Both the position numbers and the translations under genes were made by a program. The notes below the pieces were generated by a model. It was not told the DNA's origin, did no database searches, and saw only the letters and a program-made list of their open reading frames with translations. From the human T2T-CHM13v2.0 reference genome, Homo sapiens, in the NCBI RefSeq assembly GCF_009914755.1, contig NC_060926.1: 64,000 nucleotides of DNA; one strand, given 5' to 3'. This document shows positions 9,516 through 61,197 of this stretch, piece after piece (within the stretch, counting starts at the first letter, position 1; every line of letters starts with the position of its first letter).

Positions 9516-9998
9516 CCATCCCTGCTTTATTGGCACCTTCTTGAATTACAGACTAATGCTAAGTAACCACAGCTGGTGACAAAACACTTTCTTTGTTCAC
9601 AAGTCACAGGTGTGAGAGAAAGCCTGGCACTTGGTAGAAGCTGACCCTAAAGTGGATGGACATTCTTCTAACAAACTAAAACATATCAAAACTGAATGGG
9701 TACCTTGAAGAACTGAGGAGGAACTTGAAGAAAACCTTGGGCAGGGTATCTCCAGCACCAGATAAAGTGGATCATCTAACACTAAAAATCCTACTAAATA
9801 GTCAAGAACCCATTCATAGGCAGGAAGAGGATGGAACACATGACAGTGAAAGGTCAAACTGTTTCTGATCATCTCAGCCTGGAGATAATCACTCCAACCA
9901 CTGAACTCCTATACCTGTGTATGTGGTACTGTATTAGTCGGTTCTTACATTGCTATAAAGAAATACCTGAGACTGCGTAATTCATAAAAAGAAAAGAG

Positions 9999-10287
<289 letters not shown>

Positions 10288-10734
10288 TTATTGCAGCACT
10301 ATTCACAATAGCAAAGACTTGGAACCAACCCAAATGTCCATCAATCATAGACTGGATTAAGAAAATGTGGCACCATGGAATACTATGAAGCCATAAAAAA
10401 GGATGAGTTCACGTCCTTTGCAGGGACATGGATGAAGCTGGAAACCATCATTCTCAGCAAACTATCACAAGATCAGAAAACCGAACACCGCATGTTCTCA
10501 CTCATAAGTGGGAATTGAACAATGAGAACATATGGACACAGGGAGGGGATCATCACACACCGGGGCCTGTCAGGGGTTGGGGGTTGGGGAGGGATAACAT
10601 TAGCAAAAATACCTAATGTAGGTGACCAGTTGATGGGTGCAGCAAACCACCACAGCACGTGTATATATGTAACAAAACTGCACGTTCTGCACATGTAACC
10701 CAGAACTTAAAGTATAATTTAAAAAAAAAAAAAA
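10288..10734 (+). mobile_element. 5'-truncated L1PA (approx. L1PA6-8) 3' end
   Basis: TTATTGCAGCACTATTCACAATAGCAAAGACTTGGAACC...CAGAACTTAAAGTATAAT + poly(A). Confidence 0.92.
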
Positions 10735-11174
10735 GAAAAGAGGTTTAACTGGCTCACAGTTCTGCAGACTGTACGGGAAGCACAGCAGCTTCTGCTTTTG
10801 GGGAGGCCTCAGGAAGCTTCCAATCATGGGGGAAGGCAAAGAAATAGGCATCTTACATGGCAGGAGCAAGAGAGAATGAGGGAGAAGGTGCTACACACTT
10901 TTAAACAACCAGATCTCATGAGAACTCACTATCTCAAGGACAGTACCAAAGGTGATAGTGCTAAACCACTCATGGGAAATCTGCTCCCATGATCCAATCA
11001 CCTCATACTAGGTCCCACCTCCAACACTGGGGATGACAATTTGACATGAGATTTGGCGGGGACACAGATCCAAACCATATCAGGTGCCCTATCCAAACCA
11101 GCTCTTAAAATGTTTATCTTACTTGCTAGAAGTTAAGTTCTTTGGCTTCTTATTTCACCTTTATAATCCCTCTT

Positions 11175-11385
11175 TGGGAGGTAGTATAAATGGCATGATA
11201 ATTCTAAGTATAGGCCTTAGAATACATAACCTCTGGTGCTGTAATTCACAAACTGTATGACCTTGGGCAAATTACCTAAATACTGTATGCCTCAGTTGCC
11301 ACCTGTAAAGTGGAGACAATAACAGTTCCTACCTCATAACATTGCAGAGTGCTTAACACAATGCCTGGTTCAATATGTTAGCTAA
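11175..11385 (+). mobile_element. MIR
   Basis: Core TGACCTTGGGCAAATTACCTAA..TGCCTCAGTT..CTGTAAAGTGG. Confidence 0.75.
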
Positions 11386-11427
11386 AGGTGGTGGTAGTTA
11401 GGGCTAATCTTAATTCACTCTACAATC

Positions 11428-11575
11428 TTGCTACTCAAGTGTAGACCAGCAGCATCAACATCACCTGGGAGCTTATTAGAAATCTCAGACCCTATCCAAG
11501 ACCTACTGAATCAGATTTTGAATTCTGACAAGATCCCTAATGATTAGTGTGCACACTAATGCTTGAGAAGCACTG
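11428..11575 (+). mobile_element. MER5A1-like hAT-Charlie MITE (left arm of inverted repeat)
   Basis: GCTACTCAA..ACCAGCAGCATC..CACCTGGGAGCTT..AGACCTACTGAATCAG..TTGAGAAGCACTG. Confidence 0.8.
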
Positions 11576-12330
11576 CTCTACAATACCCAGACTTGTCCAT
11601 AATGGGGGGAAAAACAACTAAAATTTTTTATTCAATAAATGATCTTACCTGTTCGGCTCTGGCAAGCATAGTTTTAAAAACCAATCTCATGCATCAACCC
11701 TGCCATTTTCCAGTGTCAATCAGCTTTCTCAGGTAGATTACCCTACTGAAGAGTGTACCAATATCGTGTTCTTAGCAATTTATCATTTAAAAACAATCTA
11801 AGTGTACAATATACTAGAGTAGTATAGTAGTACATATACTAGAGACTAGTTTAAACAATAAAGCAACCATTTCCCCAGCATCTTTTTTGCTTCTCCATAA
11901 TCTTATCTCAATTTACGAATGGCAATGCCAAGGCCAAACACTGAAGACAACAAATAATCTCTCCCTACCACACTTCTACAATAACAAGAATCTTAGAATA
12001 TACAGATGTCACAAAATGTGCATCTATATAATGTTCTATAGTTTCCAAAGTGATGTTATACCGTTATTTCATTTAAGCGCCACAATTTTTATTTTACCAA
12101 GGAGCAAAACTGAGTAAGTTTCCTGACGAAAATAATGAGTGTCTACTGTTCTAGGGCCTTTAACAACAACAACAACAAATTTACATTAACGCACATTATG
12201 TGCCAGGAATTGCAAGATGCATAAGATTAGTTTTTAAAATGTGCCTGCTAGAGCTGAACAGGTAAGATCATTTATTAAAGGATTTCAGGATTTTTTTTTT
12301 CCATTATGGACAAGCCTAGGTGTTGCAGAG

Positions 12331-12477
12331 CAGTGCTTCTCAAAGCACTGATGTGCACACTAATCATTAGGGAGCTTGTCAGAATTCAAAATCTGACTCA
12401 GTGGGTCTGGAGTGGTGTCCGAGATTTAACAAGCTCCCAGGTGATGTTGATGCTGCTGGTTGGCATTTGAGTAGCAA
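12331..12477 (-). mobile_element. MER5A1-like MITE (right arm of inverted repeat)
   Basis: Reverse complement of the 11428-11575 copy. Confidence 0.8.
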
Positions 12478-12509
12478 AGCTGTGCCGTATTTAAAGAATT
12501 AGCCCTAAC

Positions 12510-12680
12510 TACCAATATGAAAACTTTACATCCCTGAATCTTCAATTACTCTGAGGTGACACTACTATTATTCTGGCTTCACAGTCGAGAAGGCACTGAG
12601 AAGTGAACTTTCCAGAGATCACAGAGCTGAGATGTGGGAAGGCAGGATTCAAACTTAGGTTGACTGACTGCAGGGCATTT
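12510..12680 (-). mobile_element. MIR
   Basis: AGAAGTGAACTTTCCAGAGATCACAGAGCT..GGATTCAAAC. Confidence 0.6.
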
Positions 12681-22781: not shown

Positions 22782-23100
22782 CCCACCATCATGAAGGGAA
22801 ATTTTAAGATTTTTCTTTCATTAATTAATTGCTTAAGAAGACAAACATTTGATAAAGACAGAGAAGACATGAAAACAAGATATGCTTGATTGAATTGTCA
22901 CATCCTGCCCACATCAAGTAAATAATAAGTTACCACATATGGAATATTTATAAAAATTGACTATGTATTAGAATATAAAGGAAGTGAAGAAATCACTCTA
23001 ATGCACATCACATTTCATGACCACATTTCAATTGGGTTAGAAATCAATGACAAAAAAGAAATCAAAACAAATATTTTGTAAATATAAGAACATATTTCCA

Positions 23101-23447
<347 letters not shown>

Positions 23448-23906
23448 TCAAAAGTTAAAGAAATCATAATGGAAATTGGGGAGGCTGGATTTCCACCACA
23501 TCTGGTAGTAACAAGACAACCATGGGGTGGTGTCAGAGAGGGCTAGTGGAGACCCAGAACTTTCACCATCACCCAGTGATAATGAGAGCACCCCTACCAC
23601 TGTGTCTTTTGAAAATGTGTAGAGAACTGGAGCTCCCACCTCTGCTCAGCATTAAGCAGGAAGCTCTCCTAGATCTCACTGGAACTAAGCAGGGAACTTG
23701 GACTTCTACGTCCGCCTAGAAGCAACAAGGTGGCTCCCCGACTTTTCCTCCAAAGCAGCATCAGAGAAAGCCAGCAGAAACTGAAGTTTGAGTGGAATGC
23801 AGAATCTCAGGGCATAATATGAAAGTCCAGATTTCAAATGAAAATCACTCATCATACCAAGAACCAGGAAGATTTCAAACTCAATGAAAATAGACAATCA
23901 ATAGAT

Positions 23907-24627
<721 letters not shown>

Positions 24628-24684
24628 AGATGACAAGACCTAGATGATAGAGATGTTAGAATTATCTAGTAAAGATGTTTAAAA

Positions 24685-25865
<1,181 letters not shown>

Positions 25866-26112
25866 CAAAGGTATAACAGCTACAATTTTTAAAAAATGCT
25901 TTAATAAGCGATTAAAAATATGCTTAAAACAAATGAAAAAAATGCAAAGTCTCAGCAATGAAAAGGAATATATAAAGAAGAACCAAATGAAAATTTTATA
26001 ATTGAAAAATACAATAACCAAAATAAAAAAGCTCAGTGGATGGGCTCAACAGTATATTGGAGAAGACAGAGGAGAAAATTAGTGAAGTAGAAGATAGAAC
26101 AATAGAAATTAC

Positions 26113-26447
26113 CGACCAGGCACGGTGGCTCCGCCTGTAATCCTAACACTTTGGGAGGCTAGGGTGGGTGGATCATTTGAGGTCAGGAGTTTGAGACTAG
26201 CCTGGCCAATATGATGAAACCTTGTCTCTACTAAAAATAAAAATAAAATATATATACCTGGGCATGGTGGCAGGTGCCTGTAATCTCAGCTACTTGGGAG
26301 GTTGAGTCAAGAGAATTACTTGAACCTGGGAGGCAGGGGCGGCAGGGGTTGCAGTGAGCCAAGATTATGCCACTGCACTTCAGCCTGAGTGACAGAGTGA
26401 GACTCCATCTCAAAAAAAAAAAAAAAAGAAAAAGAAAAAGAAAAAAG
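26113..26447 (+). mobile_element. Alu
   Basis: Alu consensus. Confidence 0.9.
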
Positions 26448-26805
26448 AAATCACCCAATCTGACCAACAGAAATAAAATGGACTGGAAAAACAAACAAAC
26501 AAACAAACAAAAAACAGAACAGAGCCTCAGCAACCTGTGGGACTATAACAAAAGATGTAACATTTATACAATCAGAAAACTGGAAGAAGAAAAGAAAGAG
26601 GGAGGGCTAAAAAAGTGCTTGAAAGCAGCAAGAGAAAAACAACACCTTACCTCTACAGAAGAAAACAGTTCAAGTGACAGTGGATTTCTCATCAGAAACC
26701 ATAAAGGATGGCAGGAAGAGATGCAATATTTTTCCAGTACTAGAAGAAAAGAACTGTCACCCTAGAATCCTGTATCCAGAGAAAATATTCTTCAAGAATG
26801 AAAAA

Positions 26806-27399
26806 TGTGGTGACTAATTTTAGGTGGCAACTCGACTAGGTTAGGGGATACCTAGATAGGTGATAAGGCATTATTTCTGGGTGTGTCTGTGAGGCTGTTT
26901 CTGGAAGACATTGACATATAAGTCAGTGCACTCAGTGGGGAAAATCTGTCCTCAATGTGGGCGAGCACCATCCAGTCGACTGGGGGCCTTGATAGAACAA
27001 AAAGGCAGAGGAAAGGTGAATTCACTCTTTCTGTCTCCTGGAGCTGGGACCCCTTTTTCTCCTGTCTTTGGACATAGAACTCTAGGGTCTCCAGTCTTTG
27101 GACTTCAGGGTTTGCACCAGTGGCTCCCTGGTTCTCAGGCCTTTGGCCTTGAACTGAGAGTTATACCATCAGCTTCCTTGGTTCTGAGGCTTTCAGATTT
27201 GGACTGAGTCATGCCACCAGCTTTCCTGGGTTTCCAGTTTGCAAATGGCCTATCATGGGACTTCTCAGACTCCATAATCACATGAGCCAATTTTCTTATA
27301 AATCTCTTCTCATCCATCTATGTATGTATTTATGTGTGTGTGTGTGTATCAGTCAATCAATTTACCTCCTATTGATTCCATTGCTATGGAGAACACTGA
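26806..27399 (+). mobile_element. MLT2 (ERVL) LTR
   Basis: GGCATTATTTCTGGGTGTGTCTGTGAGG..ATGGGACTTCTCAG..CATAATCACATGAGCCAA. Confidence 0.85.
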
Positions 27400-28974
27400 T
27401 GGGAAATCAAGACATTCTCAGATAAAAGTAAACTAAGAGAATGTGTCACCAGAAGACTACCCTAAAAGAATGGGTAGTCTCTAAACAGAAAGTTCTCTAA
27501 ACAGGAAAGAAATGATAAAAGAAGGAACCCAGTAACACTAGAAAGGAAGAAAGAACACAGTAGGTAAAAATACGGATAAATATTAATACCATAGGTTTTT
27601 ATTCTCCTTTCAAATTTTCTAAGATGCATTTGACAACTGAAGCAAAAATTTTAACACTGTCTACCTAATGTGGTTCTAAAAGTACATAAAGGAGATAGTT
27701 AAGATAATTATATTGTAAATGGAGAAGAAAAGGGGACTTAAAGGGATGTAAGGTTTCTATACATCATTCAAACTGGTAAAATGATGGCACTAGTAGATTG
27801 TAATAAATTTTGTATATATAATATAACACCTACAGCAACCACTAAAAAGCATATGCAAAGACATACACTCAAAAATGCCATAGACATTAACCATCAGGGA
27901 AATGCAATCAAAACCACAATGAGATCCACTTCACACACTAGGATTGTATAATAATTTTTAAAAAGACAGATAATACCAAGTGTTTGCAAGAACCTGGAGA
28001 AACGGGAACCTTCATACACTGCTTGCAAGAAGGTAAAATGTTGCAGTAATATTGCAAAACAGTTTGGCAGTTCCTCAAAAAGTTAAATATAGAGATACCA
28101 TATGATCCAGGAATTCCACATTAGGTATATACTGCCAAGAAATTTAAATGTATGCTCACACAAAAACTTGTACACAGATATTCATAGTTGTATTATTCAA
28201 AGTAGCCCAATAGTGTAAACAACACAAATATCCATCAACTGATGAATGGATAAATAAAATGTGGTATATCCATATAATGGAATATTACTCAACCATAAAA
28301 AGAAATGAAGTACGGGTTCAAGCTACAACACTGATGAAAAATTGAAAACATTACACTAAGTGAAAGAAACCAGACCCAAATGACACATATTATATGATTG
28401 CATTTATATGAATTATCTAGAATAGATACCACAGAGAGAGAAAGTAGACTGATGGTTTCCAGGGCCTAGGGGGAAGGCAGACTGGGTTGTAACTGCTAAG
28501 ATATGGGGTTTCTTTTGGGGGGTGGTGAAAATGTTCTGGAATTAAATAGTGGTAATGATTACACAACCTTGTGAAGACACTAAAAGTCATTAAATTGTAT
28601 GCTTTAAATGGGTGAATTGTACAGTATGTGGATTCTCTCTCAATAAATCTATTATAAAACCCTATAGAGATATCAAAATGGAATTCTAAAAAATGTTCAA
28701 GTTACACACAAGAAAAGAGGGAAAGAAAACAAAGAGGACAAATGGGAAACAAAATATAAAAGACATATTTAGTTCTAACATGTTGATAATTACATTAATT
28801 GTAAATGGCTTAAGTATAATAATAGAAGAAATTGGCAGAGTGGATTTAAAAACATGACCCAATTATATGCCATCTACAATACACTCACTTCAAATATAAT
28901 ATGAGAAGGTTGAAAGTAAGAGAATGGAAAAAAAAACTTTATCATGTAAACATTAATCAAAAGCATGAGTGGCT

Positions 28975-29300
<326 letters not shown>

Positions 29301-36932: not shown

Positions 36933-37470
36933 TTGAGCTTTTGAAGCTCAGCAATAGGAAAACAAACAACTCCATTAAGAAATAGTTCAAAGACTTTGAC
37001 ACCTCATTAAAGAAGATATATAGATGGCAAATGAGCATGTGAAAAGATGCTCCACGTTATAAGTCATCAGGGAAATGCAAGTTAAAACAATAATGAGATA
37101 CCACTGCACACCTACTAGAATGACCAAAATCTGGAACAACTGATAACAGGCAACACTGGTGAGAATGTGGACCAACAAGAACTCTCATGGGAAGCCAAGA
37201 TGGAAGCCACTTTGGAAGACAGTTTGTCAGTTTCTTACAAAACTAAACACTCTTAACATGAGATCCAGCATTAGTATTTATTTAAAGGAGGTGAAAACAA
37301 AAATGTACACATGTATGTTTATAGCTGTTTTATTCATAATTGCCAAAACTTGGAAGCAACCAAGATGTCTTTCAGTAGGTGAATGGATAAACTGGTACAT
37401 CCAGACAATGAACTGTTTATTCAGTGCTAAAAAGAAATGATCTATGAAGCCATGAAAAGACATGGAAGAT

Positions 37471-37784
<314 letters not shown>

Positions 37785-39212
37785 TTAAATGCATATTAGC
37801 AAGTTAAAGAAGCCAGTCTGAAAAGGCTACATACTGTATAATTCTAACCACAGGACATTCTGGGAAAGGCAAAACTATGGAGATGGTAAAAAGACCAGTG
37901 GTTGCCAGGGGTTGGATGGAGGGAGGGTTGAATAGGTGTAGCACAGAGGATTTTTAGGGTAGTAAAACGACTCTGTATGATACTACAATGATGGATACAT
38001 GCCATTATATATTTGTCCAAATTCACAGAATGTATAACACCAAGAGTGAACCCTAACGTAAACTCTGGACTTCGGGTGAGTATAACATGTCAATATAGGT
38101 TCATCAATTGTAACAAACGTACCACTCTGTGGGGGATGTTGATACCGGGGAGGCTACACATGTGTGGTGGCATGGCGTATAAGGGAAACCTCTGTACCTT
38201 CTCTCTTTTGCTGTGAACCTAAGAGCTCTAAAAAAAGTTCTAATTTTAAAAAACTTTGAAATCTAGTATAATGGAAGAATGGATTAGAGCTGGGGGAGGC
38301 AATCAGCAGTCTGCCTTGGATGCCTGTGGGTCATCCAAGTGAGATGTCCAGCAGATAGTCTATTTGCAGATCTGGTATTGAATAGAGTGTTCTGGACTAC
38401 AGATGTAGATTCAGTATGTGGGAGTCAAAGACATGAGTATTGATGAAATCACCCAAATTGATTAAAAACTGGAACAGAACTCTAGGAAAACAATAACTCT
38501 GAAGAAGCAAGGGAGGAAGAAAATTCCAGGAAGGAAATTATGAAGGGAAGATCAGAGAAGTAGGTGAAAATCAGGTAGAGTAGTACCACAGAAGTTCAAG
38601 GGAAAGGAATTGCAAGGAGGAAATGCTTAACAGAGTCACCATAGGCAGAGAGCTAAAGTAATATAAGTAAGAAAATGCATTCACTGGATTTAACTATTAA
38701 TTCAATTAGATATAATCCAATTAATATAGGAAGAATAAATAAATGACTGTTAAATTAAGTATTAAAGGCCTAACAGTTAAATAATGGAAACAAAAGGGCA
38801 GATTAGGGCAATGGAAGAGGGTGATTTTTAGTGAGGATATAGCTGAAACAAGGTTGGCTATGAGTCGATAATTGTTGAAGTTGAGTAGATGGGAATTAAT
38901 CATATTAATCTCTCTACTTTTGTATATAATTGAAATTTCCTAAGAAAAAAAAAAGATTTAAAAAACCTTCTTCCTCCTAAAAAAGGAAAGCCACAGATTG
39001 GGAGAAAACATTTGCAATACATATATTTGACAAAGCACTCATATCTAAAATATGTACATAACTCTTATAATTCAATAAGAAAAAGATAGACAGAAACCCA
39101 ATAGAAAAATGGGCAAAAGATTTTAACAAGCACTTCCCAAAAGAGGTTTTTCAAATTACTAATAAACATGACAACGGTTTTAGCCTCATTAGTCATTGGA
39201 GAAGTGCAAATT

Positions 39213-41340
<2,128 letters not shown>

Positions 41341-44727: not shown

Positions 44728-47550
<2,823 letters not shown>

Positions 47551-48304
47551 TTAAAGGCAGATCATACACACTTCTGCTCTCATCACCCGACTTAAACTTT
47601 CCTGGGACCCTGAAGATATGCAAATTTGAAAGCTGCATCCTAGTCACATCTGTAACTATCTGCGTTGTCCTGAGTTCTTGATCGTCTGGTAAGTGGGAAT
47701 TCTTCTACTCGACCTGTTGCACAGGGATTTTATGAAGTGAAATAATCTAGTATATATAAAACAATAAAATATTTTGATGAGATTTTACATCATTACAAAA
47801 AGTGTAATGATTTTACATCATTACATTTATTAAAAAATTAAATGAAAAGATTGCCTAAATTGATCATGTCAATATATTTAATTGACAACAAAGAACAAGA
47901 ATGATTAAAACACAGATGATTAAAACATATTTTAACAATTAAATTTCAATTTATTCTTCTTTGAGTTTTTAATCAGATCCAACAGCAAAAAGGACCTAAC
48001 ACAAGATCCAGATCTTTCTCTACGTCACGTCCCTTTGGTAGAATTTTAAGGAATAATAAAATGGCCAAGGAGAAAAACGTGGGAGAGCAAGGAGAAAGAT
48101 CACATAAATAATCTCCCAGGCTCTCAAACAATGTAAGGAATAGACGAAAAGAAGTATGTAACTATGGGGAACAATTAAGATTTTTGTCTTGGAGCAGGCC
48201 ATAAATATTAATATTTTTGTCACTTCTAATGGGCACTAAAAATATAATCTGTTTTCTTCAATCTTTTCCACCTATTCTAAATGGATAGTAAAAAGTTTGG
48301 CAAA

Positions 48305-56385: not shown

Positions 56386-57000
<615 letters not shown>

Positions 57001-58212
57001 CCTTTTGTTTTTGGTTTTAGTTAGTTTTTCATGTACCACACAGAAGAGTTAATCTTTTGTTTTTAAAAAGTATTTTTTTTTCCAAAACCTACCATGTGAA
57101 ATTTTTAAGTAAAATTTACCTCAATAAAGTTGTAAAAAAGACAATCTACCACATGGAAACGTTTTATTTGTTACAGATTTGTATATGCATAGTAATAAAT
57201 ATCTGACTTCGCATTTTGCTACTCAGAATATTGATGTAAAAGTCATAGATGTTATGCTTTACTTAGCATGGATTATATTTTATTAAATAAACATATTACA
57301 CATCATATGATCAGATGAAGAGAAGAGTCTTGACGTAGGTAGCATATGGCTGTATAATGATAATATGACTAATTTTATCTCAGGGATTCTGTGATATAGT
57401 TTAAGATAAATGAAGACAACACGCTATGTCTTAAGACAAGGTTAGTGATGACTCTGGAAAACTGTCTAGGTGACTCAAAATCACAGACTGTGACTCTTAG
57501 CTTCTTGTTGAGTTGATTCACTACCTTAATAAGACAGATTCCATTAATATCATTACTGTTTTAACTGAAATGGTCTGAAAAGTATATATTCCTACAAAAT
57601 AAATATCTTCTACTCAATGCAAAATAATAATTCATTGATTGACATGAATTCTATTTTTACCGTATCCCAAAAAAGTAACAAGTCAAATGCATATGGACAA
57701 CTGTCTTATTTATATCTTAAATATCTTCAAGTATCTTTAATGTTTTCATTGCACTTGATATTTGTGATGACACATTTCAACTCTTGGCCATCTATTTTAT
57801 CTTCCTACTATGGCCTCTGATTTGTGTCATAAATTAAATGACAGCCTTTCTGACAGAAAACTTACTTTGTAAAATGAACAAGTTCTAAGTGCAGACATTT
57901 CTTCACATAAGAAAACAAACATATTATGTGCTTTCTTTTCAGCTCAGAGCTAAGTAATAATTTTATCATTCCAGATAGAATAAGGTTGTATTACCTTACA
58001 TCAATATAAAAACTTTTATTGCCAATTCAAAAAAAATTTTTTTATGATCTGAACAAATTCAATGACAATACCATGAAAATATCCTCTAGTTTTTAAACTA
58101 AACCTTTTGAGTTCTCTTAGAGAATTTTAAGACTAAAAACGATAGGAAATATGCCTTGTGAGTTTTGGTCTTCCAGTTGCTGATGTGGCATGCTATATTT
58201 AAGAAGAAGCAG

Positions 58213-58537
<325 letters not shown>

Positions 58538-58994
58538 TTAACATTTCTGTTTATATATGCTGTTTTTTCAGACAAGGTCATTGGCCTCCTTGGTTTTCCT
58601 CGCTCTCTCTGCAATCCCCCCTTCTCTTCTCCTTCCCCGTTTTTTCCACAGGCCACCATCCCTGACACTCTTGCCATAAGGCTTCCTGTTTACCACTCAG
58701 CTCCTGCAATTTCCATGTCCTCTATCTTCTCTTTACTAATCCCCATCTCCCCAACCCTCTCTACACATCATTACCACCTCATCTCCTACTTTGTCAAAAA
58801 AAGTACAGAGTATGAACCTCACAGGAAAAGCCCTCTGAAATCGATCTGCTGGTTAGGGAATGAGAAGAGGTAGAGCCAGGCAAGGCCACTCCTTCTGGGT
58901 ACATAGGGAAAGAAATTAAAGCTGCTACAACTAGACAGTCAGAAGTTGCTCAGAAGTGGTAGTCCTAAATGTTCTTAAGGGAGCTACTCTGGTT

Positions 58995-59726
<732 letters not shown>

Positions 59727-60977
59727 GGAGCTAAACAGGTCAGGAAAGTACAGCTGTACAGTGGGACCAGCACACTGAAGTCAGCTGCCCAGAGGCCACC
59801 CCAGAGAAGGGACTACAGTCAAAGAATGCAGCATAGACAGTGGGGCACAGAGTTTTGGTATTTTTAAAACTCCAAAATCAAGATGATGACTCAATTATTC
59901 AAAATATGTGATTAAAACACTTCCTGAATAACACTATTCTCTGCCCACTTACACCCTGCATTGAAATTCTGAACACTCTTCTCTATATCTCTAAATTTTG
60001 TTCTTCTATATCTCCATAGTCATCAAAAGAAAAGAAAAATGACCCTGACTAAGCATAGCTTCTATGGCAAGAACAATTCTTATTCCAGTTGGAGGACTTT
60101 CCAAATGAGGAGTCATGGGCACATTATTGGAACTGGTACAAGTCACTGTGCAACAAAATCATTTTCTGATGAAGCTGAGTAGAAGTACTTTTTTAAATAA
60201 CAAAAACTATAGCTACAATCAACAAAAAAGCAAAAAGTTATCCAAAAAAACATTGCTTCAATTGTAAATAAGAGGTAGGATTATTTGAAGATGAAGGATT
60301 TAGAGGAAAACATCTGGAGCTAGCTTGTATGTATCTCTTCACCATTTCTCAGCTAATACAGAATCAGAGCTTTTCAAAAGAAGAGCTAAATAAATTTGCA
60401 CTAAAATCCACTGGACTGAATTATGATACTTCTGATGCACTCTGATTTATAAGATTATAAGATTATGGTTTGTCTGCCCCCACCAAATCATTCTTTCAGT
60501 TTTTCACGTTTAACAGATTATTTTTATTTTGTTTTTGAATTCTTTATTATCTAATAACATTAGACTTTAATTAATGCATTCAACTTTATATATTTTTAAA
60601 ATGTGTTTTTATTTGATGTTTTCTAATATATTTATAAACTATAATGTTTGAAATGTATTATTTAGTTCCACTGATTTTTAAAAAATACATTGGGTATTTT
60701 AAAAGAAAATAGTGATATGAATACTGACTTTTGGCATAACTAAAAAAATCAAAATATCAGCATTATCATTTGTTCTAGTATTGTAAAAATCAGTGAGGAA
60801 GAAAAAGACCTTTCACTTTGACTCTATTTGGAAATGATGGAATCAGATCAAATCCTAAGTCTTTGGTAAATGACGAATGGAGATCAGAATGATTTCCTTT
60901 TCAAAAGAACATTAAGACTTAAGCTATCTCAGACATTTCAACAAAAGACATTGGGATGTGACTAAGATTCTGTGGTT

Positions 60978-61197
60978 ACCAGCCTGGGCAACATAGCAAG
61001 ACTCCATCTCTACAAAAAAAAAAAAAAAATTAGCCAGGTGTGGTGATGCATGCATGTAGTCCCAGCTACTTGGAATGCTGAGGTGGGAAGATCACTTGAG
61101 CCCATCCATCAGCTGGAGGTTGCAGTGAGCTATGATCACACCACTGCACTACAGCCTGAGTCACAGAGCCAAATCCTGTCTCAAAAAAAAAAAAAAT
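60978..61197 (+). mobile_element. 5'-truncated AluJ
   Basis: Alu consensus. Confidence 0.85.

What the first reader, a model, noticed from the sequence alone, without database searches (positions are those of the whole stretch)
11428..12477. Homogenised ~265-bp inverted repeat in CHMP3 intron 1 that extends well beyond its MER5A1 core
Seen: arms 11428-11695 and 12216-12477 are reverse complements around a ~520-bp spacer, 0.8-1.9 kb downstream of the CHMP3 exon-1 donor. Exact blocks include ACCAGCAGCATCAACATCACCTGGGAGCTT, TCAGATTTTGAATTCTGACAAG, TCCCTAATGATTAGTGTGCACA, CTTGTCCATAATGG and AATAAATGATCTTACCTGTTC. About 120 bp of the match lies outside the MITE. Both MITE copies appear to share the same departures from the MER5A1 consensus as I recall it. 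Known: MER5A1 is ancient, so independent copies should be far more diverged from each other and should not share flanks. Inference: a local inverted duplication, or arms kept alike by gene conversion or selection. It could form a long dsRNA stem in CHMP3 pre-mRNA (and in any antisense RNA), act as an ADAR substrate, or mediate inversion of the spacer.
Basis: partly seen in the sequence, partly recalled or inferred. Interest (0 to 1): 0.85.

Follow-up and report, generated by a model that had tools for sequence, protein, structure and literature searches.

The report
Old inverted duplication in CHMP3 intron
A 300-base stretch of CHMP3 intron 1, carrying an ancient small transposon, was copied once, backwards, into a spot 520 bases away long ago and has drifted since, so the inverted repeat is real but looks like an ordinary genomic fossil.

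Summary
The inverted repeat is real and slightly larger than reported. The arms are 11392-11695 and 12216-12514, with 250 of 306 aligned columns identical (E 3e-75) around a unique 520-bp spacer.

Each arm holds one MER5A-type MITE (11426-11575) plus about 150 bp of flank. That flank occurs nowhere else in the genome. The two MITE copies share 13 derived substitutions and two deletions against an empirical family consensus. They are 88.7% alike, against 70.5 ± 4.3% for 561 random pairs of copies. They are therefore one insertion that was later duplicated.

The right arm is the copy, because it splits an older SINE. Removing 12214-12515 in silico rejoins that SINE at consecutive profile positions and raises its score from 28.0 to 44.9 bits. 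Removing the left arm restores nothing.

Divergence looks neutral:
- K2P between arms is 0.183, with 35 transitions and 12 transversions.
- There is no strand bias in G·U-compatible changes (19 vs 16).
- MITE and flanks do not differ significantly (p 0.20).

Homogenisation is not supported, though cross-species data were not available. The duplex is thermodynamically strong, but similar inverted repeats are common in this window. As a side effect, the copy supplies the exon-1 splice donor of CHMP3-AS1.

The parts
11228..11384 (.). Left flanking SINE fragment (MIR-like; the name is recalled). It abuts the left arm and is inverted relative to the right-hand SINE.
   Evidence: nhmmer with a profile of 26 genomic copies: 11228-11376, profile 122-300, E 5.7e-33. 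The tail to about 11384 was read against the profile consensus. Genome hits at 73-87% identity.
11392..11695 (+). Left arm, taken to be the source segment of the duplication (304 bp).
   Evidence: Alignment with the right arm. Excising it restores no interrupted element.
11418..11425 (+). 8-bp target-site duplication CTCTACAA, outer copy, left arm.
   Evidence: Read from the sequence and from the ends of 34 aligned family copies.
11426..11575 (+). MER5A-type hAT MITE in the left arm.
   Evidence: In the whole-arm search, 38 of 40 scored genome matches are other loci, covering only about 11418-11587 at 71-80%. Sub-threshold Rfam mir-544 match at 11455-11544.
11576..11583 (+). 8-bp target-site duplication CTCTACAA, inner copy, left arm.
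   Evidence: The right arm has CTCTGCAA at the matching place.
11696..12213 (.). Spacer, unique sequence. Its last 27 bp (12187-12213) are the cut-off tail of the right-hand SINE. The annotated CHMP3-AS1 start (12084) lies inside it.
   Evidence: The genome search finds only itself plus a 45-nt low-complexity match. nhmmer places profile 282-308 at 12213-12187. Hub annotation gives the start site.
12214..12515 (-). Inserted inverted copy (right arm 12216-12514 plus 1-2 unassigned bases at each junction). Its MITE copy lies at about 12331-12479.
   Evidence: Excision of 12214-12515 rejoins the SINE, taking it from profile 92-281 to 92-308 and from 28.0 to 44.9 bits. MITE mapping 11428-11575 to 12477-12331.
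12516..12680 (.). Body of the right-hand SINE that the copy interrupted.
   Evidence: nhmmer profile 92-281, E 9.7e-10.
12084..12267 (+). CHMP3-AS1 exon 1 (12084-12261) and its donor CAG|GTAAGA. The last 46 nt of the exon and the donor lie in the right arm.
   Evidence: Hub annotation for the exon. Sequence. The same motif sits reverse-complemented in the left arm inside the exact 21-nt block.

Best explanation
One MER5A-type hAT MITE inserted once, making an 8-bp target-site duplication, next to the end of a SINE. This is shown. Much later, a roughly 300-bp segment holding that MITE and its unique flanks was copied in reverse orientation into a second, oppositely oriented SINE 520 bp away. 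The copy has no target-site duplication and no poly-A tail. That the right arm is a copy inserted into a SINE is shown; the mechanism is inferred to be a replication template switch or templated repair of a break. Since then the two arms have diverged by ordinary neutral substitution to 84% identity at aligned bases. This step is inferred from the mutation spectrum and the lack of strand or region bias. The dating, about 45-90 million years, rests on recalled lineage rates. By-products are a potential 300-bp imperfect RNA stem in intron 1 of CHMP3 pre-mRNA and the splice donor of CHMP3-AS1 exon 1.
For: Extent and significance: 250/306 identical, E 3e-75.

Not a repeat family:
- The inner flank hits only itself and the other arm in the 3.1-Gb genome.
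- Of 40 scored matches to the whole arm (612 candidates), only itself and the other arm cover the flanks.
- The spacer is unique.

One insertion, not two:
- 13 shared derived substitutions and 16 shared deleted consensus positions, against means of 3.1 (max 11) and 0.26 (max 6) in 561 random pairs.
- MITE identity is 88.7% against 70.5 ± 4.3% (max 81.1%) for those pairs.
- The matching target-site duplication lies next to the same inner flank in both arms.

Direction of copying:
- The right arm separates profile positions 92-281 and 282-308 of one SINE.
- Excising it raises the score from 28.0 to 44.9 bits. Of 24 control excisions, only the two next to the true site raise it at all, to 35.2 and 31.8 bits.
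- Excising the left arm changes nothing (104.3 to 103.7-104.9 bits).

Neutral decay:
- 35 transitions and 12 transversions, K2P 0.183, MITE versus flanks p 0.20.
- G·U-compatible transitions split 19 (+ strand) versus 16 (- strand), p 0.74.
- Shared/private order along the MITE, p 0.14.
Against: - Mismatches are clustered: four exact runs of 21 nt or more, p 0.0007 by permutation.
- In 11516-11546, 8 of 9 departures from the consensus are shared, while in 11427-11510 only 3 of 15 are. One later conversion tract could produce this.
- Private changes are unequal (5 left, 11 right). However, the reference copies were picked as best matches to the left arm, which biases this count.
- The outer target-site duplication in the right arm is badly degraded.
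- No other mammalian genome was available, so the key test of concerted evolution was not run.
- The junctions show no microhomology that would identify the mechanism.
Confidence: 0.8

Rival explanations
1. The duplication is older than the divergence suggests. The arms, or a central tract of them, have been kept alike by gene conversion or by selection on the RNA stem or on the MITE core.
For: Mismatch clustering, p 0.0007. The tract 11500-11556 has a single mismatch, and almost all its departures from the consensus are shared. The cofold energy is -409 kcal/mol against -157 ± 6 with a shuffled partner.
Against: Overall K2P is 0.183, with 47 mismatches and 9 gap columns. Flanks are not significantly more diverged than the MITE (p 0.20). 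There is no excess of G·U-compatible changes on the CHMP3 strand (16 vs 19). The runs test on shared/private order gives p 0.14. The longest exact block is 30 nt (p 0.09), short for efficient recombination. This last point rests on established knowledge that I recalled, not on a call.
Confidence: 0.1
2. The whole 1.1-kb unit is one foldback-type or long-terminal-repeat transposon of a rare family.
For: The outermost 17 bp of the arms are perfectly complementary. The architecture resembles long terminal inverted repeats.
Against: The flanks and spacer have no other copy in the genome. The tail of the interrupted SINE lies inside the unit, between the arms, so only the right arm is an insertion. 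No target-site duplication flanks the unit.
Confidence: 0.02
3. Two independent MER5A1 insertions in opposite orientation.
For: Both cores belong to an abundant family.
Against: About 150 bp of unique flank is shared. The arms share two deletions and 13 substitutions, and their identity is above that of all 561 random pairs.
Confidence: 0.01

Closest known systems
Local template-switch or templated inverted insertions (four-point model of short-range template switching; FoSTeS/MMBIR-type events)
   Same: A reverse-complement copy of nearby sequence is placed a short distance away and creates an inverted repeat, with no target-site duplication or poly-A tail. Walker et al. 2021 (PMC7954356; abstract and passages read) describe such events as widespread in great-ape genomes.
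   Different: The size differs. Their gold-standard events have a median copied length of 12 bp and a maximum of 128 bp, whereas here about 300 bp was copied across 520 bp. The event is old, so the junction detail is eroded and the mechanism cannot be read from it.
Inverted Alu pairs in introns (the usual ADAR substrates)
   Same: Two roughly 300-nt arms, about 80-90% complementary, under 1 kb apart, in an intron. The predicted stem runs end to end. The window holds more than 20 other inverted pairs of similar quality within 3 kb.
   Different: The arms come from a local duplication of a DNA-transposon fossil plus unique DNA, not from two SINE insertions, so the stem partner is unique in the genome. 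Editing here is untested.
MER5A1-derived mir-544 hairpins
   Same: Each MITE core is itself a palindrome and gives sub-threshold Rfam mir-544 matches. MER5A1 matches miR-544b precursors according to PMC5424272 (passages read).
   Different: The scores of 42.2, 28.2 and 27.4 bits are well below the gathering score of 66.5, so this is family resemblance, not a miRNA gene.

Membership tests
MER5A1 / MER5A hAT MITE (arm cores) | Many dispersed genomic copies matching the core only | tested here: met
   612 and 374 first-look candidates. In each search, 38 of 40 scored matches are other loci, at 71-81% identity, confined to about 11418-11587.
MER5A1 / MER5A hAT MITE (arm cores) | 8-bp target-site duplication typical of hAT elements | tested here: met
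   CTCTACAA at 11418-11425 and 11576-11583. The element ends were set from 34 aligned copies. In the right arm only the inner copy is still recognisable.
MER5A1 / MER5A hAT MITE (arm cores) | Alignment to the curated Dfam/Repbase consensus and assignment to a subfamily | not testable with these tools
No repeat library is on hand.
Local inverted duplication / templated insertion | The copy interrupts a pre-existing sequence that is restored when the copy is removed | tested here: met
   The SINE profile alignment goes from 92-281 to 92-308 and from 28.0 to 44.9 bits on excising 12214-12515. Of 24 control excisions, only the two next to the true site raise the score at all, to 35.2 and 31.8 bits.
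Local inverted duplication / templated insertion | Exactly two copies, adjacent and in opposite orientation, with flanks not part of a repeat family | tested here: met
   The tool warns that its counts are lower bounds.
Concerted evolution of inverted-repeat arms | Arms within a species are more alike than orthologous arms between species | not testable with these tools
   No other mammalian genome is held.
Concerted evolution of inverted-repeat arms | Patchy tracts of identity, with private changes erased | tested here: inconclusive
   Runs of 21 nt or more, p 0.0007; longest run, p 0.09; shared/private order, p 0.14.
Structured RNA under selection | Changes between arms favour pairing (G·U) on the transcribed strand | tested here: not met
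   16 on the CHMP3 strand against 19 on the other, p 0.74.
ADAR-edited dsRNA | Clustered A-to-G mismatches in RNA reads over the arms | not testable with these tools
   No editing catalogue is on hand. The two CHMP3 sites found in print lie elsewhere in the gene by my recalled coordinate offsets.
mir-544 miRNA gene | Rfam gathering score reached | tested here: not met
   42.2, 28.2 and 27.4 bits against 66.5.

The most novel reading that the evidence does not exclude
After the duplication, a central tract of the arms (about 11500-11556 and its partner) has been kept identical by gene conversion or selection. The intron-1 stem is a functional, ADAR-edited dsRNA that affects CHMP3 or CHMP3-AS1 expression. 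On this reading the inverted copy also created the antisense gene's first splice donor.
Probability: 0.07. Interest if true: 0.45.

Novelty: new member of a known kind. Interest (0 to 1): 0.2.

Why it matters
The finding has modest importance. It is a clean, datable example of a mid-sized (about 300 bp) local inverted templated insertion in a human intron, and the source, target and direction can all be read from the sequence. The event moved a latent splice donor onto the opposite strand, where an annotated antisense lncRNA now uses it. It also yields a non-Alu inverted repeat whose partner is unique in the genome, which would make any editing or duplex reads easy to assign. It does not currently point to a new mechanism or a selected structure.

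Tried and rejected
- A direct alignment of the sequences outside the arms found nothing beyond chance (score 14 against 11.3 ± 1.7 for shuffles). The repeat therefore does not extend into the two flanking SINEs, even though they too are inverted relative to each other.
- A strict in-window blastn found no other copy of either SINE fragment, and no MITE copy other than the partner arm.
- The genome search with the right flank returned only itself. It took a profile of 26 copies to recognise that flank as a SINE.
- I considered that the shared block of changes marks a MITE subfamily. The exact 22-mer occurs only in the two arms, with one other place at 1 mismatch and five at 2 mismatches, so no such subfamily showed up.
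- I looked for microhomology or a target-site duplication at the junctions of the inserted copy and saw none.
- Paper searches:
  - 'CHMP3-AS1' gave 2 papers (listing only).
  - 'MER5A1' gave 16 papers (listing; passages read in two of them).
  - 'CHMP3' with 'A-to-I' gave 7 papers (passages read in two).
  - None of these mentions this repeat.
  - A dsRNA-catalogue preprint does not name CHMP3 in its main text. Its supplements were not examined and could list this stem.
- Rfam gave only sub-threshold matches.

Full report
**Observation**

The sequence and the repeat finder show six collinear reverse-complement pieces between 11392-11695 and 12216-12514. A gapped blastn joins them into one alignment: 250 of 306 columns identical, 9 gap columns, E 3e-75. 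A global alignment gives 250 matches, 47 mismatches (35 transitions, 12 transversions), 9 gap columns and a K2P distance of 0.183. The arms reach 36 bp further out than reported and end in a perfect 17-mer. The spacer is 520 bp.

**What the arms contain**

The window's own 3.1-Gb genome could be searched.
- With the whole left arm as query, 40 of 612 candidates were scored. Only the arm itself and the other arm (82%) cover the full 304 bp. The other 38 cover only query positions 27-196, at 71-80% identity.
- The 115-bp inner flank finds only itself and the other arm.
- The spacer is unique apart from a 45-nt low-complexity stretch.

So each arm is one copy of an abundant short element, about 11426-11575, plus unique DNA.

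The ends of 34 other copies aligned together place the element between two perfect copies of CTCTACAA (11418-11425 and 11576-11583). This is an 8-bp target-site duplication, as expected of hAT elements (established knowledge).

I could not align to the curated MER5A1 consensus because no repeat library is on hand. Indirect support for the name comes from two sources. Rfam gives sub-threshold mir-544 matches on both cores (42.2, 28.2 and 27.4 bits against 66.5). A paper reports that the 160-bp palindromic MER5A1 consensus, described there as eutherian, matches miR-544b precursors (PMC5424272, passages read).

**One insertion, later duplicated**

I compared the arms with a majority consensus of the 34 other copies, using columns with at least 50% support.
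- The arms share 13 derived substitutions and 16 deleted consensus positions (two deletions).
- Private changes number 5 in the left arm and 11 in the right.
- In 561 random pairs of the other copies, shared derived substitutions average 3.1 (max 11) and shared deleted positions 0.26 (max 6).
- Arm-to-arm identity in the MITE is 88.7%, against 70.5 ± 4.3% (max 81.1%) for random pairs.

One caveat applies. The 34 copies were the best genomic matches to the left arm, which lowers the left arm's apparent private count. Even so, together with the shared unique flanks, two independent insertions are excluded.

**Which arm is the copy**

Beyond 11392 and 12514 the two sides are not alike (local score 14 against 11.3 ± 1.7 for shuffles). 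The left flank does belong to a dispersed family, which I recognise from memory as MIR. A profile of 26 of its genomic copies matches three places:
- 11228-11376, profile positions 122-300, E 5.7e-33;
- on the opposite strand, 12680-12516, profile 92-281, E 9.7e-10;
- on that same opposite strand, 12213-12187, profile 282-308, E 0.22 on its own.

The last two are consecutive in the profile and are separated exactly by the right arm. Removing 12214-12515 in silico gives one alignment over profile 92-308 and raises the score from 28.0 to 44.9 bits. Twenty-four control excisions of the same length elsewhere give no rise, except for the two next to the true site, which reach 35.2 and 31.8 bits. 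Removing the left arm restores nothing (104.3 against 103.7-104.9 bits).

The right arm is therefore a roughly 300-bp inverted copy inserted into an older SINE, and the left arm is the source. This also rules out a single foldback transposon, because the SINE's tail lies between the arms. I saw no target-site duplication, poly-A tail or microhomology at the junctions. That fits a templated insertion or template switch rather than transposition, but the mechanism is inferred. In great apes such events have been catalogued with a median copied length of 12 bp and a maximum of 128 bp (PMC7954356, abstract and passages). This one is larger.

**Has it been homogenised?**

Several results argue against homogenisation:
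- Substitution-only identity is 87.2% in the MITE, 82.6% in the inner flank and 76.5% in the short outer flank. MITE against flanks gives p 0.20.
- The order of shared and private changes along the MITE is not significantly clustered (runs test p 0.14).
- Each transition between arms makes a G·U wobble on one strand only. The split is 19 on the plus strand and 16 on the CHMP3 strand (p 0.74), so there is no sign of selection for pairing in either transcript.

Other results leave the question partly open:
- Mismatches are clustered (four exact runs of 21 nt or more, p 0.0007; longest run p 0.09).
- In 11516-11546, 8 of 9 departures from the consensus are shared, against 3 of 15 in 11427-11510. 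One later conversion tract could explain this, as could chance and the misalignment around the low-complexity stretch.
- The exact 22-mer from this block occurs only in the two arms genome-wide, so it is not a subfamily signature.

I rate neutral decay after a single event as much the more likely reading. The proper test needs other species, which were not available.

**Age (inference)**

A K2P of 0.183 means about 0.09 substitutions per site per arm. In the MITE, 13 shared changes against an average of 8 private changes per arm put the duplication at roughly two-fifths of the element's age. From human-lineage branch lengths that I recall (about 0.03 since Old World monkeys, 0.05-0.06 since New World monkeys, 0.15-0.17 since rodents), the event falls roughly 45-90 million years ago.

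**RNA consequences**

On the CHMP3 strand, the 1147-nt region folds with the arms paired end to end (MFE -529 kcal/mol). Cofolding the arms gives -409 kcal/mol, against -157 ± 6 with a shuffled partner. The plus strand gives -400 against -150 ± 5. This is what any 84% inverted repeat would give.

Both arms lie in intron 1 of CHMP3, 0.8-1.9 kb from the exon-1 donor, so a stem in the pre-mRNA is plausible. It is comparable to an inverted Alu pair. The window holds more than 20 other inverted pairs within 3 kb, at 70-89% complementarity.

The annotated CHMP3-AS1 starts at 12084, between the arms, and so contains only the right arm. Its exon 1 ends at 12261, inside the right arm, at CAG|GTAAGA. 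The same motif lies reverse-complemented in the left arm within the exact 21-nt block. The inversion therefore placed a latent donor on the strand where the lncRNA now uses it.

The CHMP3 editing sites I found in print are hg19 chr2:86754288 (PMC9241197) and chr2:86504167 (PMC10401594) (passages read). By gene coordinates that I recall, both lie tens of kilobases from this repeat. No paper found mentions the repeat.

Inversion of the spacer by recombination seems unlikely, given the 30-nt longest exact block. That judgement rests on recalled established knowledge and was not tested.

**Verdict**

The repeat is real and correctly observed. It is best explained as an ancient one-off local inverted duplication of a MITE-bearing segment into a neighbouring SINE, followed by neutral drift. 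It is an unreported instance of a known kind of event and is of low to moderate interest.

Noticed in passing
window 12216-12267 and 11636-11656: The donor of CHMP3-AS1 exon 1 (CAG|GTAAGA at 12261/12262) and the last 46 nt of that exon come from the inserted inverted copy. The source arm carries the same motif on the CHMP3 strand, where it could act as a cryptic donor in intron 1.
   Followed up: partly
window 11228-11384 and 12187-12213 + 12516-12680: Two fragments of the same SINE family, inverted relative to each other, bracket the structure. Both have the same end facing the arms. They are not detectably alike pairwise. Whether their homology guided the template switch is open.
   Followed up: partly
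window 11455-11544, 12358-12450: Sub-threshold Rfam matches to mir-544 on both MITE cores, and to SNORD101 (27.2 bits against 47) at 12374-12434. These are read as family resemblance of the palindromic MITE, not as genes.
   Followed up: no
window 11805-11849: A 45-nt low-complexity stretch in the spacer matches short tandem arrays at three places on contig C8 at 86-91% identity.
   Followed up: no
window 23000-29300, 37400-39900, 44800-47600, 56400-61100: Many inverted repeat pairs with arms of about 100-150 nt ungapped at 72-89% complementarity, within 3 kb of each other. They are probably inverted SINE pairs.
   Followed up: no
window 11050-11090: The first 34-41 nt or so of the left-flank query match many genomic loci at 93-100% identity. 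This suggests that the repeat masked at 9940-10776 continues to about 11085 (sequence seen).
   Followed up: no
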